Translations under genes and position numbers: made by a program
Notes under the pieces: model-generated
What the model saw: only the letters and a program-made list of their open reading frames with translations
Told to the model about the DNA's origin: nothing
Databases searched by the model: none
DNA from: Dictyostelium discoideum
Lineage: Eukaryota
DNA: 64,000 nucleotides
NCBI GenBank assembly: GCA_000004695.1
Contig: CM000150.2
Location: 2,400,001 to 2,464,000 of the forward strand
Direction of reading: 5' to 3'
In this document: positions 7,979 through 29,714 of the stretch, piece after piece
How positions within the stretch are numbered: position 1 is the first letter of the stretch
Layout: every line of letters starts with the position of its first letter

Positions 7979-8348
7979 ATATTTTTTAATTTTTTTTTTT
8001 TTTTAATAAAAATTTTCAAAGAATTAACCCAATCACACATGTCCCAAAATTATTATGACAATACAGACTTTCTTTCTTTCACATTCTAAAATGAAATCGA
8101 ATTAATTTCATTCTTTTTGATAATGGTTTATTTTCGATGTTTTGATTTTATTTTTATATTTAAACTCTTTAATAATTTTAATTTTTATTAATCAATCAAA
8201 CATAAATTTAATATATACATATAATAAATATAAATAATTATAAATTAATAAATAATAATATTAAAAAAATCATATATTAATAATATAAATAAATAGCCAT
8301 AAATTAAAAATCATTTTTTTAAAAAAAAATATATATTTAAAAAAAAGA

Positions 8349-8934
8349 ATGACAAAATTAAAAGTTGGAAATATTGCACCAGATTTTGAAGCTAAAAATT
8401 ATTTAGGTCAAACAGTTACATTAAAAGAATTTAAAGAAAAGAGTCAACCAATCGTTTTATATTTTTATCCAAAAGATAATAGTCCAGTATGTACAAAAGG
8501 TAAGTCAATTTATATTAAATGTTTTTTTTTATTTTTTTTTTTAAATTACTAATAATAAATAACCTTTTTAATATAATAATTCATACATACATACAAACAC
8601 ACACATATATATCAATATAGAGAGTTGTGAATTTAGAGATAAATATCAAAAGTTTATAGAAGCAGGCGCAGAAGTAATCGGAGTCAGTAGCGATGGTGAG
8701 GATAGTCATAAATCATTCGTTTCAAAATATTCATTACCATTCACATTATTAACAGATAAACATAGTAAATTAGCCAAGTTATATGGTGTCAACGGTATAT
8801 TATTACCAGGTAGAAAAACATTTATAATTGATAAACATGGTATTATAGCTGGTATTCATGATGGTTTACTCAGCTCAACTTCTCATATCGATGAATCTTT
8901 AAAAATAATTGAAAAATTAAAATCACAAATCTAA
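8349..8934 (+). CDS. Peroxiredoxin of the BCP/PrxQ type (thioredoxin fold), copy 1. Two exons: join(8349..8499,8621..8934).
   Basis: [50 protein letters not shown], then [48 protein letters not shown].... This is the BCP signature (P..D.TPVCT.E...FRD). Intron 8500-8620 (gtaagt...atatag), phase 1. Confidence 0.75.
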
Positions 8935-9081
8935 ATAATAATTTTTATAATAAATTGTACATGCCCACCCACCTTTGTAATTTTTTTTTATAATAAATTG
9001 TAAATTTTTACGTTTTATAATAACTCCAATATTTCTTAAAGTTTAAATAATTTATTTAAAAGTTTTTTAAAAAATTTAAAA

Positions 9082-9116
<35 letters not shown>

Positions 9117-10093
9117 ATATTTAAAACATAAAGTTCTTCTGAAAGCCTGTAAAGGTTTTGAAAAGTTATATGGTAACAATTGTTATTATTTTTAGATTTG
9201 TTTTTTCTTTAAAAGTTCATAACTAAATCTAATCTTTTGAGTGTTGTAATATAATTGTGTAATAATTAAATTGTTACAATAAAATAATGTTTTATCAACA
9301 TATTAAATTAGATATAATCTCGCTCTCAAACTAAAATAATTTATGATTATAATTAGACTTTTCTCACCTAGGTGGGAAAAAGCCACTTGGTGAGTTTTTA
9401 ATGTCGATTGAAAAACTTATAAACATAATTTCAAATCTCAAATATAAAAAGTAAAAATTTTCAATAGTAAAAGACATTCATAATAAATTTTAGATTTTGT
9501 CGATAACATCAACTTATTACTTTATTTTTATTTATATATATTTATTTATTTATTTTAATTTTATTTTTCTATTACAAGATTCTGATAAAACATGAGCAAT
9601 AATTTAGGCGAGTATTTTTAACTAATTTTATTTAACTAATAAATCATTTATATAAATTATTGTGTTAATGTTCAACATTTGAGGGTATATTTGATAAATC
9701 CTGAAATTAAAAGATAACTAACCAAAAAATTTATAATTTTAAAAAAGAGAGGGAAGAAGAGCAACTAAATTATTTATTAATAATAACACAAACCTACTCT
9801 AATAGATCAAATTACAAAAACATTATTATTTTCATCTTTTTTAAATACCTTTTTTTTTTTTTTTGGAATATTTAAAAAAAAAAAAAAAGATAAATAATGT
9901 TTTGCGTTTGATGTATTAATACACAAAATCACAGAAATATTTTTGAATTTTTTTTTTTTTCAATATTTCATTCCTAATTTTTTACTTCTTTTTAATTAAA
10001 ACCATCATTTTTTAACTTTTGGTGGCACTAATGATGGCACCAATGCCAAAAATCTTTTATTAGTTTTTTTAAAGAAATTTCATTATCTTTTCT

Positions 10094-11960: not shown

Positions 11961-12002
11961 ATTGAAAACCAAATGGTTGACACACTTTGATAACCCGCCA
12001 TT

Positions 12003-12272
12003 TATTTCGATCGATCGAAAAAAACAAACAACAACAATCTCTTTTTTTGATTATTTCATTTTTCATATAAAAAAGACTTAAAAAACAAATAAATAAATAA
12101 ATAAACTATTTTAAAAAGCCATCTTTTTACTTTATTGTAATTTATTATTTGTTTCGTTTTGAGAATTTTGCGTAGCAAAATTTTCAAAAAAAAAGCAAAA
12201 AATAATCAGATCGAAAAAAACAAACAACAACAATCTCTTTTTTTGATTATTTCATTTTTCATATAAAAAAGA

Positions 12273-12308
<36 letters not shown>

Positions 12309-12748: not shown

Positions 12749-13343
12749 TTTATATTTTTGTGGGTGACATGCTTTATATAGGTGAATACAATTACAATAA
12801 ACCACTATGCTAAGGAGTTATTGAAAACCAAATGGGTTAAACTCTTCGATTAAATTATCAAAATATAAAAAGCTAAGTTAAATATAAAAATAAATTAAAA
12901 TATACTTGTTAACTAAATTGCATTAGACCACTTTCCTTACACATGTAAAGAATGCTCTATTTCCTGCCCACAGCTTCTTGAATGAAAAAATTTAACCACG
13001 GGAGTTATGAATAAATATCTTGAATTCATTGAAACTGATAAAATCTAATTGTGTCTGGGAAGGTTGAACAGAATTTTGAATTCAAAATTAATATTATAAC
13101 TATAATTAATAAATAAAAAAATAAATAGATAATTAAAATTATAAAATACTTTAAGAATATATATAATTTCTAAAAGTAATTTTAGAAATAATAATTATAG
13201 GAATGAACCATCTTCGATACAATTTAATAAGTGTAATGAATACTCTAATACTTTACATGACACTTTAAATATTAATTTACACTTACTACTACTTTCCTTG
13301 AAAAAATGAAATAAACATCTTTGGGTTATTCCCTAAAAAGAAG

Positions 13344-13461
13344 ACACCTTAGCAAAGTGTATAACCCATTTGGTTTTCGATGACACCCAAGCAAAGTTTT
13401 TTACCCATTAGGTTATCTATGACAGTTTAGCGAAGTGTATTACCCATTTAGTATTCCTTAA
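13344..13461 (+). repeat. Three tandem ~39-bp units, each built from the first ~17 nt of tRNA-Ser (A box TTAGCAAAGTGG) plus the ~22-bp 5' leader (cccatttggttttcgat)
   Basis: gacaccttagcaaagtgtataacccatttggttttcgat / gacacccaagcaaagttttttacccattaggttatctat / gacagtttagcgaagtgtattacccatttagtattcctta. Compare the true gene at 14193-14235. RC copies at 27969-28082 and 24874-24914. Confidence 0.6.
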
Positions 13462-13870: not shown

Positions 13871-14176
13871 TCCACCAAAGAATAAGTAACACTCCTACTT
13901 CATATATAAAACTGTGGGAAGAGGAACTCAAAAACAACAACAACAACAAAACAACAACAACAAAACAAAATCAACTACACTGGCAATGCAAGCAAGCATG
14001 GACCCAATTAAAAACTCCACAAAATAAACAAACACACTACGAAAACCTCCCAAAATTAAAAAAAATATACGAGGATATGATGACAACCCAATCTCCAGAA
14101 CACAACAAATTCATACCAACTCCTGGCCAAAAAGAAATAATTACCAAAATTAATAGCAAACACCTTCCTTTCCCTT
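13871..14176 (+). pseudogene. Internal TRE5-A-type ORF2 fragment (~100 codons, YLHQRISNTPTSYIKLWEEEL...KHLPF), fused to the A-module on its 5' side and to the tRNA-Ser leader on its 3' side at short microhomologies
   Basis: ~95% identical to 26563-26875 of the ORF2 copy. The 5' junction is at aaaaaaaga|tacctcc (shared aaga). The 3' junction is at cacctt|cc.. vs caccttagcaaagt. Track ORF 13840-14178 begins in the A-module (MKNEIIKK). Confidence 0.55.
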
Positions 14177-14215
14177 GACAACTTAGCAAAGTATTTTACC
14201 CATTTGATATTCGAT

Positions 14216-14296
14216 GACACCTTAGCAAAGTGGTTAATGCGGCGCCCTGCTAAGGCGTTCTCTTCGGAGGCGCAGGTTCGAACCCTGCAGGTGTCG
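14216..14296 (+). tRNA. tRNA-Ser (anticodon GCU), with a long variable arm
   Basis: GACACCT TA GCA AAGTGGTTAA TGC G GCGCC CTGCTAA GGCGT TCTCTTCGGAGGC GCAGG TTCGAAC CCTGC AGGTGTC G. The G73 discriminator is typical of tRNA-Ser. Confidence 0.85.
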
Positions 14297-14321
14297 AATT
14301 TTTAACTTCCAAACCTGAATA

Positions 14322-14341
14322 ACAGGTTCGATTCCTGTTGT
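14322..14341 (+). promoter_or_regulatory. External B box downstream of tRNA-Ser(+)
   Basis: aacaGGTTCGATTCCtgtt, about 26 bp after the tRNA 3' end. Confidence 0.45.
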
Positions 14342-14516
14342 ATTATATACAAAATAATTCTCGATAACAGCTAAATTTTCATGGGTGCAAGAATTAAAAA
14401 TAATATAAATAATTAATAAATTAGTAATCAAATCTATAATTTAAAAATAAAAACTAATTAACAAGATTAACAAATCGGAACAGATTTTATATAAATTTTT
14501 TGTTTATGAGCACAAT

Positions 14517-14636
<120 letters not shown>

Positions 14637-14817
14637 AAAAATTTTACAGCTTTTAATGAAAATGATCTTAAAACTTTAAAATCTTTAGATGATAAACTAT
14701 TAATATTAATAATTTACCTGCTGGTTATATTTGCAATAGAAAATCTGAAATATGTGTATTATTAAAACATCAATAACCACAGAAGGTATATCAAATATTA
14801 GAGAAGTTATATTAAAA

Positions 14818-14856
<39 letters not shown>

Positions 14857-14957
14857 TAAAAAAGTGATTAAAAAAAAAAATAAAAATAAAAATAAAATAA
14901 ATAAATCTAATTTTATTAAAAAAAATATAGAAAAAAGAATTTAAAAGTGGTTATTTC

Positions 14958-15180
14958 AAAAGAAAATGTAGTAATATGATATGTATCATAACCCAATCCA
15001 ATTGTAAGAAAGGAAAGATTTATCTAAGCACTATATCATTTAGAAAAATTAATGTTCATATCAAAACTATCATATCCAAAGGGAAATAAAAAATGATCAA
15101 TATTAATCTATTGTCAGAGAAAGGAAAGATTTATCTATGCACTATGACATTACGAAAATATATGGCCATATAACTCCCTA
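14958..15180. repeat. Left arm of a ~225-bp inverted-repeat pair. Its partner is at 17566-17785 and the arms are about 90% identical.
   Basis: aaaagaaaatgtagtaatatgatatgtatcataacccaatc...cagagaaaggaaagatttatctatgcactatgacattacgaaaatatatggccatat is the reverse complement of 17566-17785. Each arm has an internal ~35-bp direct repeat (aaaggaaagatttatcta[a/t]gcactat). Confidence 0.6.
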
Positions 15181-15580
15181 AAAAAAAATTCAATAAAGTT
15201 TATTGAATAAACCTTAGAATTTTTAAATAAAACAGCATTTCAAAAAACAAATTTAATTAAAATTAAATAATAAAATAAAATAAATAAAAAAATAAATATT
15301 TGAAAAAAATAATACATATTTTCATTAAAGTTTTGAAAAAACATAAAATTCTTTTCACACATTCTAAAATGAAATCGAACCAATTTTTTCTTTAGGATGA
15401 TAGTTTGTTTTGATATTTTAAATTTATTTTTAATATTTAAACTCTTTGATTTTAATTTTTGTTAATCAGTTAAACATAAATTAATATAAATATAAATAAT
15501 TATAAATTAATAAATAATATAAATAATCATAAATTAAAAATCATTTTTTTTTTAAAAAAAAATATATATATAAAAAAAGA

Positions 15581-15866
15581 ATGACAAAATTAAAAGTTGG
15601 AAATATTGCACCAGATTTTGAAGCTAAAAACTATTTAGGTCAAACAGTTACATTAAAAGAATTTAAAGAAAAGAGTCAACCAATCGTTTTATATTTTTAT
15701 CCAAAAGATAATAGTCCAGTATGTACAAAAGGTAAGTCAATTTATATTATTACATAATTCAATAAACTTAAATGTTTTTTTTTTTAATATACTAATAATA
15801 AAATAACCTTTTAAATATAATAAAATTACCAACATACATACATACATACATACATACATACATACA

Positions 15867-15899
<33 letters not shown>

Positions 15900-16221
15900 C
15901 AATATAGATAGTTGTGAATTTAGAGATAAATATCAAAAGTTTATAGAAGCAGGCGCAGAAGTAATTGGAGTCAGTAGCGATGGCGAAGATAGTCATAAAT
16001 CATTCGTTTCAAAATATTCATTACCATTCACATTATTAACAGATAAACATAGTAAATTAGCCAAATTATATGGTGTCAATGGTATATTATTACCAGGTAG
16101 AAAAACATTTATAATTGATAAACATGGTATTATAGCTGGTATTCATGATGGTTTACTCAGCTCAACTTCTCATATCGATGAATCTTTAAAAATAATTGAA
16201 AAATTAAAATCACAAATCTAA
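15581..16221 (+). CDS. Peroxiredoxin of the BCP/PrxQ type, copy 2. Two exons: join(15581..15731,15908..16221).
   Basis: The exons are nearly identical to copy 1. The intron is longer because of a (CATA)n expansion at 15841-15896. The ~100-bp upstream promoter region (..cacattctaaaatgaaatcga..) is also shared. Confidence 0.75.
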
Positions 16222-16809
16222 ATAATAATTTTTATAATAAATTGTACATATCCACTTATCATTGTATATTTTTTTTGTTTTATAATAATTCACCAATTAA
16301 TATCAATAATTCTTTAATTTTAAATAAATTATTTAAAATATTTAATAAAAAATAAATAATAAACCAAATCAATAATTATATTCTCTTTTAAAAATAATTA
16401 TAAAAAATGAATGGTAAATAATAAAATACTTAAAGTCTACTTTTTCTTAAGAAATTCATATTGATGGGAGTTGGCGGATAAAATACATAAAAGATTTGGA
16501 AGAGTTTTATTTTTGATTATTTTTTTTTTTTTTTTTTTTTGGTATTTGAATCCAAGAACATTAACAAACCATTTTATCTATGAATTAAAGATTTTTTTAA
16601 AATAAATTAAAACAGTTAAAAAAAAAAAAAAGTTTGAAAATTTAAAAATATTTATTCAAAGAAAGAATTTAAAAGAATTAAAATTATTTTTTTTATTGGT
16701 TTTTTATTGGTTTTTTTTTTTTTTTTTTTTTTTTTTGATATCGAATAGTTTTTATATTTATTTTTAATTTTTTAGTTTAAAAATTTTTTTTTTTTTTTTT
16801 TTACACTAA

Positions 16810-17466
16810 ATGAAAGAAAAAACTACAGCAACAACAACAACAACAACAATACCAACAAGGAATGCAGATGATGATTATGAATTAATTAAAGTTTTAATGT
16901 TGGGTGATTATAAAACTGGTAAAGGTTCAGTTTTAAGAAGATACCATTATAATGAATTTGAATTAGGAGTATCATCAATTGGTGTTGATTTTGTTATAAG
17001 AGATTATGGTATTGTAAATGGTAAATATTATAAAATTCAAATTTGGGATGCAAATAGTTGTGAAAGGTTTAGATCAATAACACAAGCCTATTATAGAGGT
17101 GCACATGGTTTTATGTTATTATATGATTGTACCAATCAAGAATCATTTAATAATTTACAATTTTGGATCAATGAAATTATAAATAAATCACCAAATTCAA
17201 ATAATTCAACAATTGTTATCATTGGTAATAAATGTGATTTAGTTAATGATATTAAAATTGATCCAATAAAATCTAAACTATTTTGTGATTCAAAATCAAT
17301 AACTTCATTTCAAAATGTTTCTGCCAAAGATTCTATCAATATAAACGAACCATTTGAAATTTTATTTAAACAAATAATTGAAAAAGGTCATTCACAAACA
17401 ATTTCTCCAAAACTAATAAAACAAAGATATGAAAACAATAATAATAAATCATGTAATATTTTATAA
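16810..17466 (+). CDS. Rab-family small GTPase-like protein (218 aa) with non-canonical G1 and G3 motifs and a C-terminal CNIL (CaaX-like) box
   Basis: LIKVLMLGDYKTGKGSVLRRY (P-loop GDYKTGKGS instead of GDSGVGKS), IGVDF, IQIWDANSCERFRSITQAYYRGAHGFMLLYD (DANSC replaces DTAGQ), GNKCDL (NKxD), VSAKD (SAK), ends ...KSCNIL. Confidence 0.65.
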   Translation: MKEKTTATTTTTTIPTRNADDDYELIKVLMLGDYKTGKGSVLRRYHYNEFELGVSSIGVDFVIRDYGIVNGKYYKIQIWDANSCERFRSITQAYYRGAHGFMLLYDCTNQESFNNLQFWINEIINKSPNSNNSTIVIIGNKCDLVNDIKIDPIKSKLFCDSKSITSFQNVSAKDSININEPFEILFKQIIEKGHSQTISPKLIKQRYENNNNKSCNIL

Positions 17467-17565
17467 TTTGTAAAAAAAAAGTTATTTAATTTTAATTAAA
17501 TTTGTTTTTGAAATGTAATTTTATTTGAAAATTCTTTTTAGGCTTATTGGAAAATTTAGGGGGGG

Positions 17566-17785
17566 GAATGATATGGTCATCTATTTTAGTAATGTCATAG
17601 TGCATAGATAAATCTTTCCTTTCTCTGACATTAGATTAATATTGATTATCATTTTTTATTTCCCTTTGAATATGATAGTATTGGTATGAATAATAACTTT
17701 TCTAAATGGTATAGTGCATAGATAAATCTTTCCTCTACCAATTAGATTGGGTTATGATGCATGTCATATTACTACATTTTCTTTT
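17566..17785. repeat. Right arm of the inverted-repeat pair (partner at 14958-15180)
   Basis: Reverse-complement match to the left arm. The pair brackets BCP copy 2 and the Rab-like gene. Confidence 0.6.
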
Positions 17786-18343
17786 TCCTTTATTTTTTAA
17801 AAATAAAATTAGAAAATTTATTTTTTTTTTTTTTTTTTTCACTTTTTTTAACTTTTTATTTACCTTTTTTTTCTATATAATTCTATCTTAAATCTTTTAA
17901 TATCTTTTTTTTTTTGAAATAATACTATTTCATTTTATTTGTTTTGATTTTTTGGTTTGGAGTGAAAAAAAAAAAATAAAAAAAAAAAAAAAGTCTATTT
18001 ATACTCTGATAAAAATTTTTATTATTTCCTATTTAAAATTATTTAGATTTGTCCTAAAAAGGAGTTTTTACTTTTTTTTTTTTTTTTTTTTTTTTTCCTA
18101 TTTTTTTATCAATCAAAAAAATTTCTAAATTGGAAAATAATAGATCTATTATTAATTAATATTAATAATAAAAATGGTAAAATAGGAAAACTAATTTAAT
18201 TTTAATTTTTTTTTTTATTCTTAATCTCCCCATACACCATTTATCAACATTCAAATTCTTTTTCAAATGATAAACCAATAAAAAAAAATAAAAAAAAAAT
18301 AAAAAAATAAAAAAAAAATTAAATAAATTATACAGATGCAATA

Positions 18344-18396
<53 letters not shown>

Positions 18397-18675
18397 GTTT
18401 AATAATTTTTATTAATTTTAGTAATTAAAAACTTCTGGGATATTCTCCTCTATTATTTGATAAGCCATCTGTGAGTGTTTTAATGATATCTTAAATCTTT
18501 TCACTGTAAATATTTATTGATTCCATTAATATTATGATTATCCAAACTTATTAAAAAGATAAAAAAGATAAAAAAAATTGTTAAATTTATAGATAAATTA
18601 TATATAAATTAAAAAAAAGATAAAAAAAGATAAAAAAAGATAAAAAAAGATAAAAAAAGATAAAAAAAGATAAAA

Positions 18676-19003
18676 TTTTTTTTTTTTTTTATTGTAAAGT
18701 AATATACCTTTTGCTTAATGTTTATTTATTTTTTATTTTTTAGTTATTTTTTTTAGAAGTTTATGAGTTGGAATGAGTTGTCGATGTGTGAAGCTTTCCA
18801 GGATTGTTTGAATTTGTTGATCCAGTTAGTGCAGTGTTGGTTTCTTGTGGTGAAGTTGTGTTTTGGAAAGTTCAAGGTTGATGATTCCGAGCCATTTTTT
18901 GTTTATTATTTCGTTTTTTATTAGTTCTTGAAGTGATTCAATTTTGTCTGATTGTGAGATGGTGGGGTTGAATTGAATTTTGCATATCCATACCCAAATG
19001 AAG
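18676..19003 (-). mobile_element. 3'-terminal fragment of another TRE-family element (ORF2 C-terminal ...FIWVWICKIQFNPTISQSDKIESLQELIKNE..., 3' UTR, oligo(A)). It is truncated by the next insertion.
   Basis: The RC translation is similar to the C-terminal HQIWIWLCK-type region of TRE ORF2s. T-run 18676-18690. The neighbouring element's TSD lies inside it. Confidence 0.4.
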
Positions 19004-19118
19004 TTTTTTTTTTTTTTTTACCTGTGATCAGACCTTCAAGGAATGTCCTTGTGTCTTTTCGGCGGTGTTTGTTAAACGATTTTATTTTTATTATTCAATT
19101 GTATTAAATTTTTTAAAC

Positions 19119-19164
<46 letters not shown>

Positions 19165-20027
19165 ACTACTTAAATTGGAAGAGGGTTCGGAATTGCTGGG
19201 GTTTGCCAGGCTTTGTTGAATTTGTATTTGTGAAGATCTTGATTGGTGTTTTTTAGTATTGCTTCGTCGTGTTTGATTTTCTTTAGTGTGATGAATTTTT
19301 CAGTTTCGATGAGATTTAGTAATTCTGTTTCTATGACCTTTTGCTGGAATTTTGGCTCTGGTTTGCTTTCATCAGTGTTGAACAATTTGTGACAGATTAT
19401 CTTCCATAATTGGTGTGCTATTATTCCTATGAGATTGGGGAAGATTCTCTCAGTTCTGTTGTATTTTGATATGTCTAAGGTATCCATTGACCATCTGTGG
19501 ATTTTGATGAATGATAATTTGTTAACTGTTGATATGATGGTTTTTTCAATATATAGGATATCTTGGCATAGAGTGAAGAGGTGAGAATAAGGGTCTCTGA
19601 ATAGGTGGCCCCAGATCTTGCATCTGGTGTCTCTTTCGTGGTTGATACCTGGAAGTGATCTTGAGAAGAATCTGAAGAGGGTGTTTCTACCTTTTTGGTG
19701 AGAAATGCTGTTGATGTTTATGAATACTTTGGGTATTGCTGTGTTGTATCTCACCGCCCATAACTTCTGCCATTCTGTTCTTCTTGGTGTTGGGTGTCTG
19801 TCTTTGATCATGAGTTCGTAAATTTCTTTCAGTTTTAGTGGTTCGTTATTGTCGTTTCTTATACAGCCTGGAAGTTCATTTATCTTTGGATGGTTTTGGT
19901 AAAATTTGACTCTGAATACACCCCAGTGTCTGCACATATCGTTGAGGGTTGAAGTGTGGGCTTTTTTTTTACTTAATTGCTCCATGTACCATTCTTGTAA
20001 AGTATTGTTGTTGTTGTAGTTGTTATT
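19004..20027 (-). mobile_element. TRE3-type element, 5'-truncated ~1-kb copy, with a 13-14-bp TSD. It is inserted into the older TRE fragment.
   Basis: Same 3' end as 10094-10847 and 7260-7542. T-run at 19004-19019. TSD tacccaaatgaag at 18991-19003 and 20028-20040. ORF2 C-terminal 287 aa (track 19170-20033). Confidence 0.7.
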
Positions 20028-20196
20028 ACCCAAATGAAGTGGAATATGATGGAGGTGTAGATTTTTTTTTTTTTTACCTAAAAGCGGTGTATTGTTATAT
20101 TTTATTACATTTTTAAATTTTTAGATTTTTAAATTTTTAAATTTTTATATTGTTATATGTTGATATTTTTGGTTATATTATGATTACTACTACTTG

Positions 20197-20226
<30 letters not shown>

Positions 20227-20227
<1 letters not shown>

Positions 20228-23200
20228 TATAATGGAATTGGGTTTGGAGTGTTCGGGTTATGCCATGATGTGTTGAAGTTGATTATTAATTGGTCTCTGT
20301 TATTTAATTTGTATATTGTTTCACTCCTTTCGATCTTCTTTATTAAAATGAATTTCTCTATTTTAATTAAGTTGGTTAGTTCTTTTTCAATTAATGTTGG
20401 ATCAAATGAGGGTGGAGTTTTAGATTCGTCTTGATTGAATAGTTTGTGACAAATTATTCTCCATAGTTGATGTATAATTATGCCGATTAAATTTGGGTAG
20501 ATTCTTTCTTTTTTATTTGTTTTGCTAATATCTAGTGAATTGAGATCCCAATTTCTGATCTTGAAGAATGAGAGATTGTTGAATGTTGAAATTATTATGT
20601 TTTCTATTTCTTTTACTTGCATACAGTCTATAAAAAGGTGAGTGTATGGGTCACGGATTATATTGTTACAGATTTTGCATGGTACGTTACGTTCATAGTT
20701 GATTCCAGGAAGTGACCTTGAGAAAAATCTGAATAGTGTATTTCTACCTTTTTGATGTGATATGTGGTTGATATGTTGGAAGATGGATGGTATGTTGATG
20801 TTATTTATTGAAATTAGATTTTTTTGTCCATCTGTTTTTCTTATTGATTTGTATTTGTGAGTGATTAACATGTTATAGATTTCTTTAAGTTGAAGTGGCT
20901 TTTTGTTTTGACCTTTGATACAATCAGGTAGTGATTTTAGTTTATTGTGTTGTGGTGCAAAGTTGTTTCTAAAATCTTTCCATCTGTCTACCATCTCTCT
21001 TAATCCAATTGATATATATTTGCTGTTGCTGATTTGTTCCATATACCATTCTTGTAGTATGTTGCATGCTTTTATCTTGATAATGTGTAATAATCTATTC
21101 ATGTTCCAAACTTTGAATGCTACTTGTCTGATACCTAAGTCCCACATCTTAATTCCACCTTCTTTCCAATCACCGTATGCTCTATCCATTGTCATTAATG
21201 TTCTATATTTATGTTCTTCTGTGTATGTATTTTTAATTGCGGAGAAGAGGAACCATTTAATGATATTGTTTAGTTCAGTAATGTGTGATTCATTTAGTGA
21301 GTCTAGATATTGATGGTAGGATAATCTCGATAGCGCATATGTTTTGACAATTGTCATCTTTGCTCTTATTGTAGTTGCTTGACTTTTCCAATTGTTTAAG
21401 CTATCTTTGATTGAGTTGATGATTGATGTGATTTTTGAATTGAGGCCCACTTTCGTGAAATTGAGACCCAAGTATCTTTCTGGAGCTTCACTAATCTTAA
21501 ATGGGAGGTTTGGTGGTATATTACCAATGCATATCATAACAGTTTTCTCTTGATTAAGTTTTGAAGATGTACCTAGACAGTAGTTGTTGATTTTGTCCAA
21601 TACTAATTTTAATTCTTCTGCTGAGTTGTTGAAAGTTGACATATCATCTGCGAATGCTGTTAGCTTGATTCTTTTCTGGTCTGATAATTTAAATCCTTTA
21701 ATTTCGATTTCTTTAAGTATATCAATTAGTAGTGCTTCCATTACAAGTGCAAATATTGTTGGTGATAATGGATCTCCTTGTTTTGTGCCTCTGTTAACTG
21801 TAATGTGTCCCACCAGGAAGTCATTTATCTTGATCTTATTCGTTGTTTCTTTTAATAGATTCATTATTAATTCTACTATCGTTTTTGGTATGCCAATGTG
21901 GCTCAATGTTCTTCTGATACTTTTGTGGCTAATTGAGTCGAAAGCTTTGTTGAAATCGAAGAATGTGATTAACGTAGTACTATTTCTTGATTTGTTTGCT
22001 CTTTCGATTACCTCCTTCATTATTTGAATATTATCTTGGATGTAACGATTTGGAACAAACCCATTTTGAAATTTGTTTATTATTTTCTTTGTAACTGCAA
22101 GTAAACGGTTGTTGATGATCTTACTTAATAGTTTGTAGTCCGTATTGAGTAGAGTAATTGGTCTTCTATTAGCTATTTGTAGTTCGTCTCCTTTCTTGAA
22201 TAGTGTTGTGATAAATCCTTCTTTGAAGTTGGGATTGATTTCTTTTTGATTAGTTAATGTATCATTAAATACTTTTGCTAAGATTGTTGAAAGTGATGCA
22301 GAGTGGTTTCTATATAATGCAGCATTGATTCCATCTAGTCCTGGAGATTTGTGTGGATTAGAATTTTTAATTGCATTATTGACTTCTTTTGGTGTGATTG
22401 CACTATCTAATGATAGTCTGGAAATGTATTGTTTGTCCACTATCCATTTATCCAATAGTTCCTTGTGTTTACTTTCATTATCTGGTTTTTCATCGTATTG
22501 TTCTTGATAGAATTCTAAGAAGCATTTGGCTATTTCAACTTTTTCTGATACAATTGTTCCATCTTTATTTTTAATTTGGAATATGGATCTGTCCTTTTTC
22601 CTTTTCTTTAGTTTACTTGTTAGATATCTACTTGGAGTTTCTTGGTTTAAGTGAAGTTTCAATTTGGTTTCCCATTGTTTATTTGCTTCTTCTTCTTTCA
22701 ATAACTCTTCCATTTCGTCTTCTAGTTGCTTTCTTTGACCAGGGTATAAATCTTCTCTTTCAATTAATCTATGTAACCTACTCTTCTTTTTGTTTTTTTC
22801 CTTTTTTATCAAGTTCTGTTGCTTTTTGAGATGGTGCCTGATTGTATAATTCTTAAAGTGGATCCAGTCATCTAGTGTGTTGATGTATTGTTTGTTGTTT
22901 TCTATGATTTGCGAGATTTCTTCATGAATTGTTGGATCAGCCAATGTTTCTTTGCATAATGTCCACGGGAGTTTTTCAATTTTGATGTTGTTGATGTTGA
23001 TATCGTTTGCGCTATTGTTATTCATTTTTAAATCTATTGAAATAGGTGTGTGGTCAGATTTGTTGTAAATATCTTCATGCACCCTTAGCGGGTTTGAACC
23101 CACCATTGTTGGTTTACAATAAATTCTGTCCAATCTGCTATTAGATCTTGAAAAAGTTGCGATATTGTTGTTTGCACCTATATCTTTCAGGTTGCTTTCT

Positions 23201-23676
23201 TCAATTATACTTCTGATACCAATACCATAGTGTGAATTGTTGTTGTGGTCTGCATTAAAGTCACCTGCAATGATGTCATGTTTGATTTTTTGATCTTTAA
23301 TGAGATTCTTTGCTGCTATAATGAATGCATTTCTTCTAGGTATTGATGCTGGGGCATAAATTAAAAGGATGTTGATGTTGATATACGAATTGAATTTAAC
23401 TGATAATATTCTACCTTCTGTATCTTTGAAATTTACTGTTAGATAGCCAGTGCTTAAATTTCTATTCTCTATTGATACACCAGTGCCTTTACCGTTTCCA
23501 TGATCTATCCTTTCATAGTTGAACATTGATTTATAATGATTGAATGTTGAACCGTTTGTTTCTGTAAGTAATGTGATTTGGGGACCTATTCTCTTGATCG
23601 TTTCTTCAGCTTTTTTATTTGAGAGAGGGCTTGAACTACCTCTGCAATTCCATAATAAAATTTTTAATTTTTCCAT
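20227..23676 (-). CDS. ORF2 (1149 aa) of the TRE3-type element: AP-endonuclease, reverse transcriptase, C-terminal CCHC zinc finger
   Basis: MEKLKILLWNCRGS...(APE: GDFNADHNN, SDHTPIS), HKSPGLDGINAALY, NRRPITLLNTDYKLLSK, FFDFNKAFDSISH, TKQGDPLSP, FADD, ...PCKICNNIIRDPYTHLFIDC. Single uninterrupted ORF. Confidence 0.8.
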
Positions 23677-23883
23677 CCTCTTGATAGGGTTGGGTTACCA
23701 TTTGGTGGTTGACCACCACTTGGTTTTGTTTGTGTAGTAATATTGTTTGTTGTATTTGAGTTGTTTAATTTATTTGTGATGATTGTTTTGTTGTTGTTGT
23801 TGACATTTTTGTCGTTGTTATTATTGCTGTTGTTATTATTATTGTTGTTGTTGTTGGAGTTATTGGAGTTATTGGAGTTATTG

Positions 23884-23945
<62 letters not shown>

Positions 23946-24404
23946 TTGTATTATATTTGTATTATTGTTAGGTTGATTGGTTGTTGTTTGTTTTTTGTTT
24001 TTCTTTTTAGCTTCCTCCCTATCTTCTCTACTAATAGATTCACAGAAGTATACTTTAATTTGATTGTTGTTGTTTTTATATGATTGAATTTGATTATTGA
24101 TTATATTTGTATTTGTTGATTTGTTGAATAGTATTATTGCTGAATATCTGTGCACATCATTCATAATTTTAACGTTGCATTCATCAACTTCCTCTGCTTC
24201 TACTCCCATGTTTGTTTGTACATCTTCTTTTGTTATTGCTTTTGTTATATTTTTTGTGAAGGTATGGAAGTGGAGGTAGTGGTGATTAGGAAAGTATGGG
24301 ATGAATCTTTGAATTCTATATATTCCATCCTCATCCTTTATTTGAAATGTGCAAAATGAATCGTGTAGATGTTTCAAATTTTCTTTTAGAATTCTACCCA
24401 ACAC
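23664..24404 (-). CDS. ORF1 (246 aa) of the TRE3-type element, with N-rich low-complexity C-terminal half
   Basis: MLGRILKENLKHLHDSFCTFQIKDEDGIYRIQRFIPYF.... It lies directly upstream of ORF2 and overlaps it in a different frame, as is typical of non-LTR elements. Confidence 0.5.
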
Positions 24405-24551
24405 TGTTATACCTTTTGATTTTCTAATTATTGTTTTATCTTTGAGGAGTGTATTGTCAATGAATTTGAGAGTATTACTATTTAATTCTGCTGTATTTGG
24501 GTAGTATAGTCTGATTTTATATGTTGAGTTATTTAGTAATTCTTCATTGAA

Positions 24552-24554
<3 letters not shown>

Positions 24555-24605
<51 letters not shown>

Positions 24606-24627
24606 TGTGATCAGACCTTCAAGGAAT
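24555..24627 (-). mobile_element. Nested, extremely 5'-truncated TRE3-type insertion (only the last 27 bp of the 3' module plus ~48 A), flanked by a 13-bp TSD, inside the 5' UTR of the full-length element
   Basis: T48 + ttacctgtgatcagaccttcaaggaat, which is the RC of ...attccttgaaggtctgatcacaggtaa + poly(A). TSD cttcattgaatac at 24542-24554 and 24628-24640. Confidence 0.55.
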
Positions 24628-24706
24628 CTTCATTGAATACAAATTTGTTACTGATGAGATTGAAAAAGTTATTGTTCATTTTTTTTTTTTTTTTTTTTAT
24701 TTTTTT

Positions 24707-24753
<47 letters not shown>

Positions 24754-24792
24754 TATTTTATTACGTGATAAAAAAAAGATAAAAAGATAGAT

Positions 24793-24873
24793 CGACACCT
24801 GCAGGGTTCGAACCTGCGCCTCCGAAGAGAACGCCTTAGCAGGGCGCCGCATTAACCACTTTGCTAAGGTGTC
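24793..24873 (-). tRNA. tRNA-Ser (anticodon GCU), second copy
   Basis: Exact reverse complement of the 14216-14296 gene. The 5' leader cccatttggttttcgat is conserved. Confidence 0.85.
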
Positions 24874-25240
24874 ATCGAAAACCAAATGGGTAATACACTT
24901 CATTTAACCAAATGTGTAAAGGAGATCGAAAAAAAACAAACAACAACAACAATCTCTTTTTTTGATTATTTCATTTTTCATATAAAAAAGACTTAAAAAA
25001 CAAATAAATAAATAAATAAACTATCTTAAAAAGCCATCTTTTTACTTTATTGTAATTTATTATTTGTTTCGTTTTGAGAATTTTGCGTAGCAAAATTTTC
25101 AAAAAAAAGCAAAAAATAATCAGATCGAAAAAAAACAAACAACAACAACAATCTCTTTTTTTGATTATTTCATTTTTCATATAAAAAAGACTTAAAAAAC
25201 AAATAAATAAATAAATAAACTATCTTAAAAAGCCATCTTT

Positions 25241-25771: not shown

Positions 25772-25799
25772 ATTTTTGGTCTTAGAGTGGTTATAAATT

Positions 25800-27516: not shown

Positions 27517-27968
27517 GGAACCCAAGTTAATCAGAAAATTTCCAGATTTTTAACTTTTTAAAGAAAAATATAAAAAATAGAAAGAAAATAAAATGAAAAT
27601 CACAAACAACACCACAAATATTAAGCAACACAAATGCCTACAAAAAATAAGCGAAATTGTGGATAAAACTCAATTAAAAAAAAAACAATTCAAATACGTC
27701 ATAAACATCAATCACGAACCAGACGATAAAATAAAAAAAGATTTAGAAAAAAGTTTGGACAAAAAAGATGTTTTAATCAAAAGTAATAATACAATTCAAA
27801 ATTCGAAACAAAAAAAAAAAAAAAAAAAAAAAAGTAAACTAACCCCTCTTTTAGAGACCCTGTAAAAAAAAAAAAAAAATAAAATAAAATGAGATCTAAC
27901 ATCTCAAGGAGAAGCAACTAATAATTGCGTTATCCAATTCAAAAAAAAAAAAAAAAAAAAAAAAAAAA

Positions 27969-28082
27969 CCAAATGTGTAATACACTTTGCTAAGGTGTCA
28001 TCGAAAACCAAATGGGTAATAAACTTTGCCAAGGTATCATCGAAAAATATTTGGTGATACACTTCGCTAAGGTGTCATTGAA
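27969..28082 (-). repeat. Three tandem ~39-bp tRNA-Ser leader/A-box units in reverse orientation, abutting the poly(A) end of the TRE5-A copy
   Basis: ccaaatgtgtaatacactttgctaaggtgtcatcgaaaaccaaatgggtaataaactttgccaaggtatcatcgaaaaatatttggtgatacacttcgctaaggtgtcattg is the RC of the unit seen at 13344-13461. Confidence 0.55.
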
Positions 28083-28474
28083 AAATAAACCACCACAAGA
28101 CTAATTTTTTAATTAATAATTTTTTTTTTAATTGTTTTATTGTTTTTTTTTTTTTTTTTTTTAAGACTGTGGCGCTGACTATAATAATTTTTGAACCTTT
28201 ATTGAAATATAATTAAAAAAATACAAAAAATAAAAATAATTAGTAAAGTGACTGTTTTTTTATTTTTATAAAAATATTTTATAATATAAGTTGTTTTCTT
28301 TATTTATTTGTTTATTTATTTATTTTAATTTTTTTTTATTTTAAAAAAAAAAAAGTTTAAAACTTTTAAAATTATTTAAACTTTAAGAATTATTGGAGTT
28401 ATTTGGAATATTATAAAACAAAAAAAAATTACAAAGGTGGGTGGATATGTGCAATTTATTATAAAAATTATTAT

Positions 28475-29089
28475 TTAGATTTGTGATTTTAATTTTTCTA
28501 TTATTTTTAAAGATTCATCGATATGAGAAGTTGAGCTGAGTAAACCATCATGAATACCTGCTATAATACCATGTTTATCGATTATAAATGTTTTTCTACC
28601 TGGTAATAATATACCGTTGACACCATATAATTTGGCTAATTTACTATGTTTATCTGTTAATAATGTGAATGGTAATGAATATTTTGAAACGAATGATTTA
28701 TGACTATCTTCGCCATCGCTACTGACTCCAATTACTTCTGCGCCTGCTTCTATAAACTTTTGATATTTATCTCTAAATTCGCAACTCTCTATATTGATAT
28801 ATGTATGTGTGTAGGTATGTATGTATGTATGTTGGTGATATTATTATATTTAAAAGGTTATTTATTATTAGTATATTAAAAAAAAAGAAAAAAAACATTT
28901 AAGTTTATTGTATTATGTAATAATATTAACTAACTTACCTTTTGTACATACTGGACTATTATCTTTTGGATAAAAATATAAAACGATTGGTTGACTCTTT
29001 TCTTTAAATTCTTTTAATGTAACTGTTTGACCTAAATAATTTTTAGCTTCAAAATCTGGTGCAATATTTCCAACTTTTAATTTTGTCAT
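28475..29089 (-). CDS. Peroxiredoxin of the BCP/PrxQ type, copy 3. Two exons: complement(join(28475..28788,28939..29089)).
   Basis: Reverse complement of copies 1 and 2, with the same exon lengths (151 and 314 nt) and a phase-1 intron (acttac..ctatat on the plus strand). The upstream promoter block is also conserved (29330-29400). Confidence 0.75.
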
Positions 29090-29714
29090 TCTTTTTTTTA
29101 TATATATATTTTTTATTTTTTTTTAAAAATGATTTTTTAATTTATGATTATTTATTACTGATTATTAATTTATGATTATTTATTAGTGATTATTAATTTA
29201 TGATTTCTATTTAATACTATTATTTGTTAATTTATATTTATTATATGTATAAATTAATTTATATTTGATTGGTTAATAAAAATTAAAATTATTAAAGAGT
29301 TTAAATATTAAAAATAAATTCTAAACATTGAAAATAAACCATCGTCGAAAAGAATGAAATTTATTCGATTTCATTTTAGAATGCGAAAGAAAGAAAGTCT
29401 GTGTGTATCGTCATATTAATTTTGGGACAGGGTGTGATCACGTTAATTCTTTGAAAATAATTATGGAAAAAAAAAAAAAAAAAATAAAAAAATAAAAATA
29501 AAAAAAATTTTGGCTTGGAACTCTTTTTTATTTTTTTAATACTTTTTTTATTTAATAATATTTTATTTTATTTTATTTTATTTTATCTTATTTTATTTAT
29601 TAATATTTTTTTTTTTTTTTTTTTTTTATTATTTTTATTATTAGAAATACATTAAGTATAATTATTATATTATTATATTATTATTATTATTATTTTTTAT
29701 TTTTTTTATTTTTT

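What the first reader, a model, noticed from the sequence alone, without database searches (positions are those of the whole stretch)
14958..17785. A ~225-bp inverted-repeat pair brackets a 2.4-kb segment carrying a peroxiredoxin copy and a Rab-like gene
14958-15180 and 17566-17785 are reverse complements at about 90% identity, and each contains an internal ~35-bp direct repeat. The enclosed segment holds BCP copy 2 and the divergent Rab-like gene. The structure resembles either terminal inverted repeats of a DNA transposon or foldback element that captured host genes, or the footprint of an inversion-duplication. It is not explained by the retroelement annotations above.
Basis: seen in the sequence. 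Interest (0 to 1): 0.55.

Follow-up and report, generated by a model that had tools for sequence, protein, structure and literature searches.

The report
Inversion scar flanking BCP2 and rabT2
The inverted repeat is real but is not a transposon end: it is the visible core of a roughly 1.2-kb inverted duplication of the DNA just downstream of the rabT2 gene, most likely left behind when a 2.2-kb piece of Dictyostelium discoideum chromosome 1 carrying one peroxiredoxin gene and rabT2 was flipped.

Summary
In detail: 14958-15270 and 17785-17482 are reverse complements (84% over 318 columns, E~1e-77; core about 90%), and each has an internal ~111-bp tandem half-repeat. The window is D. discoideum (AX4-type) chromosome 1, and the 'Rab-like' gene is exactly RabT2. 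In three other D. discoideum-complex assemblies the arm occurs once, directly 3' of rabT2, and its first ~75 bp also follow the paralogue rabT1. The enclosed genes and the right arm are present where the left arm is absent, which rules out a TIR or foldback transposon. There is also no TSD and no transposase. The stated arm ends are not real ends: homology continues about 110 bp outward. tRNA-Ser(GCT) genes with the same upstream ~39-bp arrays lie in mirror positions on both sides. Relative to L002 and L005, BCP2-rabT2 is inverted with respect to both outer flanks. Each repeat copy keeps one ancestral neighbour and has one novel junction, and the two novel junctions are the two sides of one inter-BCP spacer broken at an (AAAT)n tract. 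This is the signature of an inversion made by staggered breaks with duplication of breakpoint sequence (Ranz et al. 2007). It is ordinary in kind but a clean example, sitting in a rearrangement-prone tRNA, retroelement and BCP-array region.

The parts
14856..15270 (-). Derived copy; it reads as rabT2 3' flank on the minus strand.
   Evidence: 84.5% identical to the right copy over 374 aligned positions, and 79-86% to the single copies in L004, L005 and L002. The inner end breaks from rabT2 homology at 15270/15271.
15271..15354 (+). Novel junction 1: (AAAT)n tract plus spacer piece 'F' of an ordinary inter-BCP spacer, joined directly to the left copy. At 15346 a further ~580-bp spacer deletion is bounded by ATTCTTT.
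   Evidence: 15278-15354 is 92% identical to a piece found after BCP copies in L002 (6407-6485) and L005 (1358-1436), with weaker matches (83-87%) after the other BCP copies. All other BCP upstream regions carry ~580 bp that BCP2 lacks.
15581..16221 (+). BCP copy 2 (154-aa AhpC/TSA peroxiredoxin; exons 15581-15731 and 15908-16221; intron with (TACA)n). Part of the inverted segment.
   Evidence: Gene model; Pfam AhpC-TSA E=3e-40; collinear with the rabT2-proximal BCP of L002, L004 and L005.
16810..17466 (+). rabT2 (218 aa, identical to AX4 RabT2 Q55EF0). Part of the inverted segment.
   Evidence: Exact-sequence look-up; Pfam Ras E=8e-38.
17482..17885 (+). Parental rabT2 3' flank, with a 25-bp deletion at ~17781.
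   Evidence: Contiguous with the rabT2 stop codon and with the downstream spacer, exactly as in L002, L004 and L005. The first ~75 bp are shared with the rabT1 3' flank.
17886..19003 (+). Spacer downstream of rabT2; the part up to ~18330 is the ancestral spacer (right copy of the duplicated unit continues here). The rest, up to 19003, is A/T-rich repeats.
   Evidence: Collinear with L002, L005 and L004 spacers to ~18330.
19004..24752 (-). Non-LTR retroelement block inserted 3' of the right tRNA-Ser, splitting the right copy. ORF 20227-23676 encodes endonuclease plus reverse transcriptase.
   Evidence: Self-similarity to other element copies; Pfam RVT_1 and Exo_endo_phos. L002 11286-11594 corresponds to window 18093-24721.
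24753..24900 (-). Right tRNA-Ser(GCT) (24792-24874) with its 3' flank and first upstream ~39-bp unit. Orthologue of the tRNA-Ser downstream of rabT2 in the other strains.
   Evidence: ARAGORN and Rfam; a match to L002 spans the tRNA and both flanks (L002 11594-11756 = window 24721-24881, 86%; the flank sequence is largely A/T-rich).
27965..28084 (-). Right array of ~39-bp units (first ~18 nt of tRNA-Ser plus spacer). Outer end of the right copy.
   Evidence: Separated from the tRNA by retroelements at 24923-27960.
28085..28350 (.). Novel junction 2: 216 bp of unmatched filler (to 28292) joined to the (AAAT)n tract of the BCP3 3' flank. This is the other side of the broken inter-BCP spacer.
   Evidence: Homology to L002 and L005 tRNA-upstream sequence stops at the array. 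28295-28420 matches BCP 3' flanks of L002 and L005.
28292..29481 (-). BCP copy 3 unit, contiguous with the EF1-alpha-side flank. Orthologue of the outermost BCP of the tandem array.
   Evidence: L002 3373-5934 aligns continuously to window 31515-28888.
14822..14855 (+). A33 run at the outer limit of recognisable left-copy homology.
14298..14821 (+). Segment X: unmatched sequence that replaces the ancestral spacer in the left copy. Contains a (TAA)n run. Origin unknown.
   Evidence: No informative 14-mer shared with the window or any locus; no convincing reading frame.
14176..14297 (+). Left tRNA-Ser(GCT) (14215-14297) with its first upstream ~39-bp unit. Mirror image of the right tRNA-Ser.
   Evidence: (14189-14297 vs 24900-24792, 96%).
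13302..13449 (+). Left array of ~39-bp units (13343-13449) preceded by the unique 43-bp 'cont' motif (13302-13344) that also follows the array in L002 and L005. This is the ancestral outer adjacency of the left copy.
   Evidence: 'cont' occurs once in the window, once in L002 (11827-11869) and once in L005 (11908-11950), 88% identical, and nowhere else held.
7990..9239 (+). BCP copy 1 unit on the tRNA-Thr side. Orthologue of the inverted BCP copies of L002 and L005.
   Evidence: L005 15360-17221 is collinear with window 9239-4714 in reverse.

Best explanation
The two arms are the sequence-complex core of an inverted segmental duplication. The duplicated unit is the stretch that follows rabT2 in related genomes: from about 16 bp after the stop codon, through about 1 kb of spacer, to the convergent tRNA-Ser(GCT) gene and its upstream ~39-bp array (about 1.15 kb in L002). 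In the AX4-type haplotype, the ~2.2-kb segment BCP2-rabT2 lies between the two copies and is inverted relative to both outer flanks. The most likely mechanism is a single inversion made by staggered breaks. One break fell in the (AAAT)n tract between two tandem BCP copies. The other was a pair of staggered breaks on either side of the rabT2-3'-flank-to-tRNA-Ser unit. Fill-in and end-joining then left that unit at both ends of the inverted segment in opposite orientation. Shown here: the repeat; its single-copy state and position in three other genomes; the inversion relative to both flanks; one ancestral adjacency and one novel junction per copy; and both novel junctions lying in one inter-BCP spacer. 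Inferred: that one event produced all of this, and that the repeat has no function of its own. The copy still attached to rabT2 changes about half as fast as the other, which suggests the parental sequence is a constrained rabT2 3' UTR or terminator region. After the event, both tRNA-Ser copies were hit independently by tRNA-targeted retroelements. The left copy also lost its spacer to an unrelated 0.5-kb segment. The stated confidence (0.7) covers 'inverted duplication of the rabT2 3' flank tied to a local inversion'. That it is host sequence and not a transposon I hold at about 0.9. That a single staggered-break event produced it I hold at about 0.55-0.6.
For: (1) The arm is single-copy and directly 3' of rabT2 in L002 (10678-10971), L004 (10668-10960) and L005 (10667-10983). 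(2) L002 1-5934 (EF1-alpha-side flank) matches window 35315-28888 reversed, and the L002/L005 tRNA-Thr flank matches window 4879-4714 reversed, while rabT2 and the adjacent BCP match in forward orientation. (3) The right copy runs straight on from the rabT2 coding sequence and into the spacer shared with all strains. The left copy breaks at 15270/15271 into (AAAT)n plus the inter-BCP spacer piece F. (4) The left copy keeps the unique 43-bp 'cont' motif beyond the tRNA-upstream array, as in L002 and L005. The right copy loses homology at the end of the array and is joined, through 216 bp of filler, to the (AAAT)n tract 3' of BCP3. (5) tRNA-Ser(GCT) genes with matching 5' flanks lie in mirror orientation (14189-14297 vs 24900-24792, 96%). 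The left tRNA is 660 bp from the stated arm end, against 695 bp in L002. (6) Size (about 0.4-1.2 kb) and divergence (84.5%) fall within the range reported for inversion-associated duplications in Drosophila: median 321 bp, maximum about 1.9 kb, identity 88 +/- 5% (PMC1885836). (7) The retroelements next to the two tRNA-Ser copies differ, so they inserted after the duplication.
Against: The middle of the left copy (14298-14821, including the tRNA 3' flank) does not match the ancestral spacer, so at least one further event is needed. tRNA-Leu(CAA) at 11874-11960 is in the wrong orientation for any one-step model. The right junction contains 216 bp of unexplained filler. L004 has the window's flank orientation without the left copy, so an orientation change can also arise by another route at this locus. 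The arms differ from each other (13-15%) more than the right arm differs from L002 (6-10%). That requires either faster change in the left copy (relative-rate test 33 vs 17, p about 0.02-0.03) or a duplication older than the split of these lineages. The ~39-bp arrays are not locus-specific, since tRNA-Leu has them too. The whole D. discoideum genome could not be searched.
Confidence: 0.7

Rival explanations
1. Two-step origin. First, the rabT2 core was flipped by homologous recombination between the inverted BCP copies that flank it, as seems to have happened in L004. Separately, a copy of the rabT2 3' flank (with or without the tRNA-Ser) was inserted in inverted orientation upstream of BCP2 by template switching or ectopic double-strand-break repair.
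For: L004 shows the same flank orientation as the window with a normal tandem BCP array and no left copy. Inverted BCP copies flank rabT2 in every strain. Both ends of the recognisable left-copy core (14856-15270) abut sequence that does not match the ancestral spacer. Microhomology-type junctions (AAATAA, ATTCTTT) are present.
Against: It needs more events. It does not explain why the left side carries the unique 'cont' motif and the right side has lost it. It does not explain why the two novel junctions are the two halves of one inter-BCP spacer. The breakpoints lie outside the BCP homology that recombination would use.
Confidence: 0.2
2. The arms are terminal inverted repeats of a DNA transposon (TDD-4/5-like, DDT, thug) or a foldback element that captured BCP and rabT2.
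For: Arm length (about 225-415 bp) and total size (2.8 kb) resemble TDD-4 (3.8 kb, 260-bp TIRs) and TDD-5 (297-bp TIRs) (PMC2836005). The region is full of mobile elements.
Against: The right arm and both inner genes are present in three genomes that lack the left arm. The arm is contiguous with rabT2 and partly shared with the rabT1 flank. Homology runs past the supposed termini. There is no 5-bp or other TSD and no integrase or transposase inside. There are only two copies in 64 kb plus 25.7 kb of the same genome, and none in public metagenome contigs.
Confidence: 0.02
3. The repeated unit is a small functional RNA gene (for example a box C/D snoRNA-like or hairpin RNA) or a regulatory element, present in two inverted copies because both are used.
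For: The core is unusually complex and G+C-richer than the surrounding intergenic DNA. The parental copy evolves more slowly than the relocated one, and its first ~75 bp are conserved next to rabT1. In some copies a UGAUAU...CUGA arrangement with a 4-bp terminal stem can be read (seen directly in the sequence).
Against: No Rfam family reaches threshold, and there are no meaningful sub-threshold hits on the arms. Folding energy is no better than shuffles on either strand (z = 0.15 and 0.91). The consensus fold has 0 compensatory pairs and a positive covariation term. The C-box-like motif is lost in the left copy and the D-box-like CUGA is mutated in L004. The left copy accumulates changes as expected for non-functional DNA.
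Confidence: 0.05
4. Assembly artefact (a fold-back chimera in a long-read assembly).
For: Inverted duplications near repeats are a known failure mode of assemblies (general knowledge).
Against: The arms are 13-15% diverged with several indels and have different flanking sequence, which an artefact would not produce. The junction sequences are specific and interpretable.
Confidence: 0.02

Closest known systems
Inversion-associated inverted duplications (staggered-break model; Ranz et al. 2007, PLoS Biol 5:e152, PMC1885836)
   Same: Ancestrally single-copy, non-repetitive sequence is present in inverted orientation at the two ends of an inverted segment. Each copy keeps one ancestral neighbour and has one novel junction. 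Size and divergence are in the reported range. Only one of the two breakpoints is appreciably duplicated, and the copies decay by substitutions and small indels.
   Different: The inverted segment is tiny (about 2.2 kb, two genes) rather than a cytological inversion. The duplicated unit includes a tRNA gene, which then attracted tRNA-targeted retroelements. Extra changes (segment X, 216-bp filler, tRNA-Leu orientation) are superimposed. The organism is a haploid amoebozoan.
Inversions by recombination between inverted segmental duplications
   Same: rabT2 sits between inverted BCP peroxiredoxin arrays in all strains, and its orientation relative to the flanks differs among strains (L002, L005 vs L004, window).
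   Different: In the window the junctions lie outside the BCP homology, in a spacer microsatellite and in the rabT2 3' flank, and are accompanied by a duplication. Simple recombination does not produce that.
TDD-4 / TDD-5 (Ginger2/Tdd) DNA transposons of D. discoideum
   Same: Long inverted repeats of a few hundred bp bracketing a few kb (TDD-4 3,839 bp with 260-bp TIRs; TDD-5 3,783 bp with 297-bp TIRs).
   Different: No integrase-like transposase, no 5-bp TSD, not a unit of presence/absence, no other copies found, and homology runs through the supposed termini.
Template-switch (FoSTeS/MMBIR-type) inverted templated insertions
   Same: A nearby sequence is copied in inverted orientation, with microhomology at junctions (AAATAA; ATTCTTT) and filler DNA.
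   Different: Such events normally add sequence without inverting the intervening single-copy genes. Here BCP2-rabT2 is single-copy and inverted relative to both flanks.

Membership tests
TIR DNA transposon (TDD-4/5, DDT, thug) or foldback element | The whole element (both arms plus interior) is present or absent as a unit at a locus | tested here: not met
   L002, L004 and L005 have the right arm, BCP and rabT2 in the same order but no left arm.
TIR DNA transposon (TDD-4/5, DDT, thug) or foldback element | Target-site duplication immediately outside the arms (5 bp for TDD-4/5, PMC2836005) | tested here: not met
   No direct repeat abuts 14958 and 17785. Only A/T-only 4-6-mers occur at offset positions (e.g. 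TTATTT at -1/+4), as expected in about 80% A+T DNA. The ends themselves are not real, because homology continues about 110 bp outward.
TIR DNA transposon (TDD-4/5, DDT, thug) or foldback element | Encodes, or is mobilised by, a transposase (an integrase-like DDE protein for TDD) | tested here: not met
   The only ORFs inside are AhpC/TSA and Ras-family proteins. Non-autonomous status cannot be excluded by this test alone.
TIR DNA transposon (TDD-4/5, DDT, thug) or foldback element | Arms belong to a dispersed multicopy family | tested here: inconclusive
   Only two copies in the 64-kb window, none in 25.7 kb around rabT1 apart from the shared 41-75-bp 3'-flank piece, and one per locus in three other genomes. 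No hit in metagenome contigs. The complete D. discoideum genome could not be searched with these tools.
TIR DNA transposon (TDD-4/5, DDT, thug) or foldback element | Sequence similarity of the arms to known TDD/DDT/thug termini | not testable with these tools
   No Dictyostelium repeat library is available, and the primary description (Glockner et al. 2001) is not held.
Inversion with breakpoint duplication (staggered breaks) | The segment between the duplicates is inverted relative to the arrangement in relatives | tested here: met
   Both outer flanks of L002 and L005 map to the window in reverse, while BCP2-rabT2 maps forward.
Inversion with breakpoint duplication (staggered breaks) | The duplicated sequence is single-copy in the uninverted arrangement | tested here: met
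   One copy in L002 and L005 (and in L004) within 20-kb loci spanning the whole BCP-rabT2-BCP region.
Inversion with breakpoint duplication (staggered breaks) | Each copy retains one ancestral adjacency and has one novel junction, and the novel junctions share the second breakpoint | tested here: met
   Right copy: ancestral at the rabT2 side, novel at 28085-28292, leading to the (AAAT)n tract of BCP3. Left copy: ancestral 'cont' motif at 13302-13344, novel at 15270/15271, leading to (AAAT)n plus F of BCP2.
Inversion with breakpoint duplication (staggered breaks) | The two copies are collinear along their whole length | tested here: not met
   The left copy has unrelated segment X (14298-14821) where the right copy and all other strains have the ancestral spacer. 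A later replacement must be assumed.
Inversion by recombination between inverted repeats | Breakpoints lie within the pre-existing inverted homologous sequences (here the BCP copies or retroelements) | tested here: not met
   The junctions lie in a spacer microsatellite and in the rabT2 3' flank / tRNA-upstream array, not in BCP homology.
Structured small RNA gene (snoRNA, class I RNA, miRNA-like hairpin) | Match to a curated family, or conserved structure with compensatory changes | tested here: not met
   No Rfam hit on the arms; fold z-scores 0.15 and 0.91; 0 of 60 predicted pairs show compensatory change.

The most novel reading that the evidence does not exclude
The BCP-rabT2 locus may be a recurrently inverting cassette. 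rabT2 lies between inverted peroxiredoxin arrays, and its orientation differs among natural D. discoideum-complex lineages, apparently through at least two independent events with different breakpoints: a plain flip in L004 and a flip with duplication in AX4. The AX4 event placed an antisense copy of the constrained rabT2 3' UTR-like element just upstream of BCP2. Transcription through that copy could produce RNA complementary to the rabT2 3' end and so couple the expression of the two genes.
Probability: 0.12. Interest if true: 0.55.

Novelty: new member of a known kind. Interest (0 to 1): 0.3.

Why it matters
It removes a candidate 'gene-capturing transposon' from the list and replaces it with a concrete, testable history of the locus. 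It gives what may be the first breakpoint-level example in a social amoeba of an inversion that duplicated its breakpoint sequence, a mechanism documented mainly in flies. It shows how a tRNA gene can be duplicated by such an event and then act as a second landing pad for tRNA-targeted retroelements. It also flags the BCP-rabT2 region of chromosome 1 as structurally polymorphic (orientation and BCP copy number) among D. discoideum-complex strains. That matters to anyone using AX4 gene order, or BCP/rabT2 knock-outs, as a reference.

Tried and rejected
(1) RNA gene. An Rfam gathering scan of the window found only tRNAs. An E-value scan of 14700-18100 gave only microsatellite-driven miRNA hits and noise. 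Single-sequence folds of both strands were no better than shuffles. The consensus fold of five copies showed no covariation. A box C/D reading (UGAUAU...CUGA with an AAUG/CAUU stem) was considered, but the C-like box is non-canonical and lost in the left copy, and CUGA is mutated in L004. (2) Origin of the left copy from the paralogous rabT1 locus. rabT1 loci from the same genome (L008) and from L009 share only the first ~41-75 bp of the arm and have no X-like sequence, so this was rejected. (3) 'Shared insertion' TTAATTTTAATTAAA as a wL+wR synapomorphy. Rejected, because rabT1 flanks also have AATTAAATTTG, so L002 and L005 carry a deletion. (4) The ~39-bp arrays as a locus-specific marker. 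Partly rejected, because tRNA-Leu has analogous units. The unique 43-bp 'cont' motif was used instead. (5) Segment X as a gene fragment or known retroelement. It has no convincing frame and shares no k-mer with any retroelement copy held. (6) Literature. Searches for rabT2 and for thug/DDT/Tdd-4 descriptions found nothing usable except TDD-4/5 parameters in PMC2836005, and Glockner et al. 2001 is not held. (7) Dispersed copies. A metagenome-contig scan with a 22-mer conserved in all units found nothing. The bacterial/archaeal, phage, plasmid and E. coli collections are irrelevant to this organism and were not used. (8) The AX4 RabT1 protein (P0003) could not be located in the contig index, and one regex-based scan timed out and was redone with BLAST.
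Full report
OBSERVATION. The inverted repeat is real. The repeat finder returns two collinear ungapped pieces: 15085-15178/17564-17657 (89%) and 15011-15097/17648-17734 (91%). Gapped alignment gives 257/308 identities, E=6e-79. In a self-comparison of the whole window it is the only pair of this sequence (14958-15270 vs 17785-17482, 84%, E=1e-77). Each arm contains the reported internal direct repeat (15007-15047/15118-15158, 88%). That repeat is the best-kept part of an older ~111-bp tandem duplication. Between the arms lie an intact two-exon AhpC/TSA peroxiredoxin (15581-15731, 15908-16221; 154 aa) and a 218-aa Ras-family gene (16810-17466).

IDENTITY OF THE LOCUS. The Rab protein is, residue for residue, RabT2 of Dictyostelium discoideum AX4 (Q55EF0). 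The window matches contig JBTAPE010000039.1 of assembly GCA_054883475.1. The window holds three BCP units (7990-9128 +, 15349-16375 +, 28292-29481 -) and four tRNA genes. These include an inverted pair of tRNA-Ser(GCT) at 14215(+) and 24792(-). There are also many retroelement pieces, including a non-LTR ORF with endonuclease and reverse transcriptase domains at 20227-23676.

COMPARATIVE TEST. I fetched the rabT2 locus from two other D. discoideum assemblies (L002, L005) and from D. cf. discoideum (L004). I also fetched rabT homologue loci from D. citrinum (L003, L007) and D. firmibasis (L006), and rabT1 loci (L008 from the window's own genome, and L009). In L002, L004 and L005 the arm sequence occurs once, starting about 12 bp after the rabT2 stop codon, in the orientation of the window's right arm. 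None of them has a copy upstream of the rabT2-proximal BCP, yet all have BCP-rabT2 in the same order. A transposon that had carried BCP and rabT2 between its ends would be present or absent as a whole, so that reading fails. In addition, the first ~75 bp of the arm region also follow the stop codon of the paralogue rabT1. The proximal arm is therefore an old 3'-flank (UTR-like) feature of rabT genes.

TRUE EXTENT AND ENDS. A five-way alignment shows that the stated arm ends are not boundaries. Inward, the right copy continues into the rabT2 coding sequence like every other strain. The left copy breaks away at 15270/15271. Outward, the left copy continues to match the other strains (…TAACCACTT…TTCTTTTTTCTA…AATAAAATTAGA…TTTACC) as far as an A33 run at 14822-14855. 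The right copy has a 25-bp deletion exactly at 17781 and then resumes the same sequence, staying collinear with the other strains' spacer to about 18330. The recognisable unit is therefore about 415 bp (14856-15270 vs 17482-17885), 84.5% identical over 374 aligned positions. No target-site duplication abuts the stated ends.

THE LARGER STRUCTURE. In L002 and L005 the order is: EF1-alpha-side flank, BCP(+) x n, rabT2(+), arm, ~0.7 kb spacer, tRNA-Ser(-), tRNA-Leu/Trp(-), BCP(-), tRNA-Thr(-). Against the window, L002 1-5934 (EF1-alpha side) aligns to 35315-28888 in reverse. The tRNA-Thr flank aligns to 4879-4731 in reverse. The rabT2-proximal BCP, rabT2 and its 3' flank align forward. So BCP2-rabT2 is inverted with respect to both outer flanks.

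On the left of the window, reading away from BCP2, come in turn: the left arm; a tRNA-Ser(+) 660 bp beyond the stated arm end (695 bp in L002); and its upstream array of ~39-bp units, each made of the first ~18 nt of the tRNA plus a spacer. Beyond the array is a 43-bp motif ('cont', 13302-13344) that also follows the array in L002 (11827-11869) and L005 (11908-11950). This motif occurs nowhere else in the ~250 kb of sequence held.

On the right, the same elements occur in mirror order: arm, ancestral spacer, tRNA-Ser(-) at 24792-24874, and array at 27965-28084. They are interrupted by retroelement blocks at 19004-24752 and 24923-27960. Homology to the other strains stops at the end of the array. 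There, 216 bp of unmatched sequence leads into the (AAAT)n tract 3' of BCP3.

The left copy's inner junction leads into (AAAT)n followed by a spacer piece (15278-15354). That piece is 92% identical to the sequence found after BCP copies in L002 and L005. Thus each copy keeps one ancestral neighbour and has one novel junction, and the two novel junctions are the two sides of a single inter-BCP spacer broken in its (AAAT)n microsatellite.

MECHANISM. This is the pattern predicted by the staggered-break model of inversion. Under that model, sequence lying between a pair of staggered breaks ends up at both ends of the inverted segment in opposite orientation. In Drosophila such duplicates have a median length of 321 bp (maximum about 1.9 kb) and 88 +/- 5% identity (PMC1885836). 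I infer one break in the spacer between two tandem BCP copies, and a staggered pair on either side of the ~1.15-kb rabT2-3'-flank-to-tRNA-Ser unit. The ~2.2-kb BCP2-rabT2 segment was inverted.

Later events are also visible. Different retroelements inserted next to each tRNA-Ser copy, so the insertions post-date the duplication. A ~580-bp deletion upstream of BCP2 is bounded by ATTCTTT. The right arm has a 25-bp deletion.

The left copy has accumulated about twice as many lineage-specific differences as the right (33 vs 17; p about 0.02-0.03). This fits relaxed constraint on the copy detached from rabT2, and some constraint on the parental 3' flank.

WHAT DOES NOT FIT. (a) The 0.5 kb between the A33 run and the left tRNA-Ser (segment X, 14298-14821) is unrelated to the ancestral spacer and to everything else held. 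The left tRNA's 3' flank carries a canonical external B box like D. citrinum tRNA-Ser genes, unlike the right copy and L002/L005. A replacement must be assumed, whether by ectopic conversion from another tRNA-Ser gene or by a retroposed insert ending in poly(A). (b) tRNA-Leu(CAA) at 11874-11960 has the wrong orientation for any one-step model. (c) The filler at 28085-28292 is unexplained. (d) L004 shares the window's flank orientation but has a normal tandem BCP array and no left copy. It looks like a plain flip by recombination between the inverted BCP arrays. This leaves open a two-step route for the window as well, which I rate at about 0.2. (e) The arms differ from each other more than the right arm differs from L002. 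The event is therefore old, of the order of the split between these lineages, or the left copy evolves faster.

RNA AND FUNCTION. Nothing supports an RNA gene in the arms. There is no Rfam match, no excess folding stability and no compensatory substitution in a five-sequence consensus fold. I consider the repeat a structural scar with no function of its own. Its consequences are indirect: a second tRNA-Ser(GCT) gene and retroelement landing site, an altered BCP2 upstream region, and an antisense copy of the rabT2 3' flank upstream of BCP2.

LIMITS. No tool here can search a complete D. discoideum genome or a Dictyostelium repeat library. 'Not dispersed' therefore rests on 64 kb plus 25.7 kb of the same genome, seven 20-kb loci from relatives, and an empty metagenome scan. 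The comparative argument against a transposon does not depend on that search.

VERDICT. The transposon or foldback reading is rejected. The inversion-duplication reading is supported and made specific. The kind of event is known (inversion with breakpoint duplication), and this is a new, well-resolved instance in Dictyostelium. Interest is modest.

Noticed in passing
window 7990-29481; L002, L004, L005 whole loci: The orientation of the rabT2 core relative to the outer flanks differs among D. discoideum-complex assemblies (L002 and L005 one way; L004 and the window the other). BCP copy number varies too: 3 in the window, 4 in L002, 3 in L004 and 8 in L005. L004 appears to be a plain flip between inverted BCP arrays, so this locus has probably inverted more than once.
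   Followed up: partly
window 13343-13449, 14176-14214, 24875-24900, 27965-28084 (tRNA-Ser); 11944-11989, 12803-12837 (tRNA-Leu); L002 11749-11830; L005 11795-11905; L004 16270-16307, 16851-16975: Tandem ~39-bp units, each made of the first ~18 nt of the tRNA plus a spacer, lie upstream of tRNA-Ser(GCT) and tRNA-Leu(CAA). The spacer is strain-specific (TATTACCCATTTGGTTTTC in the window and L004; TTTCACCCAAAAATTTTGC in L002 and L005) but shared between different tRNA genes of one strain. The arrays are split by retroelement insertions. They may be a by-product of tRNA-targeted retroelement activity (flank transduction or repeated target duplications).
   Followed up: partly
window 14298-14855: A 0.5-kb segment downstream of the left tRNA-Ser has no match to anything held. 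It contains a long (TAA)n run and ends in A33 on the plus strand. It replaces the ancestral spacer in this copy only.
   Followed up: partly
window 11874-11960: tRNA-Leu(CAA) lies in the opposite orientation to that expected from L005 (Ser(-)...Leu(-)). This implies an additional local rearrangement between retroelement copies. ARAGORN calls the L002 counterpart tRNA-Trp(CCA).
   Followed up: partly
window 16810-17466: RabT2 has non-canonical nucleotide-binding motifs: P-loop GDYKTGKGS, and switch II WDANSCERF in place of WDTAGQERF (no catalytic Gln and no DxxG glycine). It ends in CNIL (CAAX-like) rather than a Rab-type double-cysteine motif. It may be an atypical or GTPase-deficient Rab.
   Followed up: no
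window 15271-15580: BCP2 lacks about 580 bp of upstream spacer, including a conserved GATCACACATGTCCC motif, that precedes every other BCP copy in the window and in L002, L004 and L005. The deletion is bounded by a 7-bp ATTCTTT microhomology. BCP2 may be regulated differently from its paralogues.
   Followed up: partly
window 15827-15895: A (TACA)n microsatellite inside the BCP2 intron produces spurious sub-threshold miRNA matches (mir-297, mir-1277, mir-3149) in Rfam E-value mode.
   Followed up: yes
window 3823-4689: Four to five tandem copies of a 199-bp unit (98-99% identical) lie immediately upstream of tRNA-Thr(AGT) at 4737, with further copies at 12010-12301 and 24923-25251 upstream of tRNA-Leu and tRNA-Ser. 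This looks like the repeated 5' module of a tRNA-targeted non-LTR element.
   Followed up: no
L003 10001-12802 (D. citrinum): In D. citrinum a rabT homologue is followed by a convergent tRNA-Ser(GCT) about 740 bp downstream, and then by a second, very divergent Rab-like gene. The rabT-tRNA-Ser adjacency is therefore older than D. discoideum, whereas no BCP genes lie nearby in D. citrinum or D. firmibasis.
   Followed up: no
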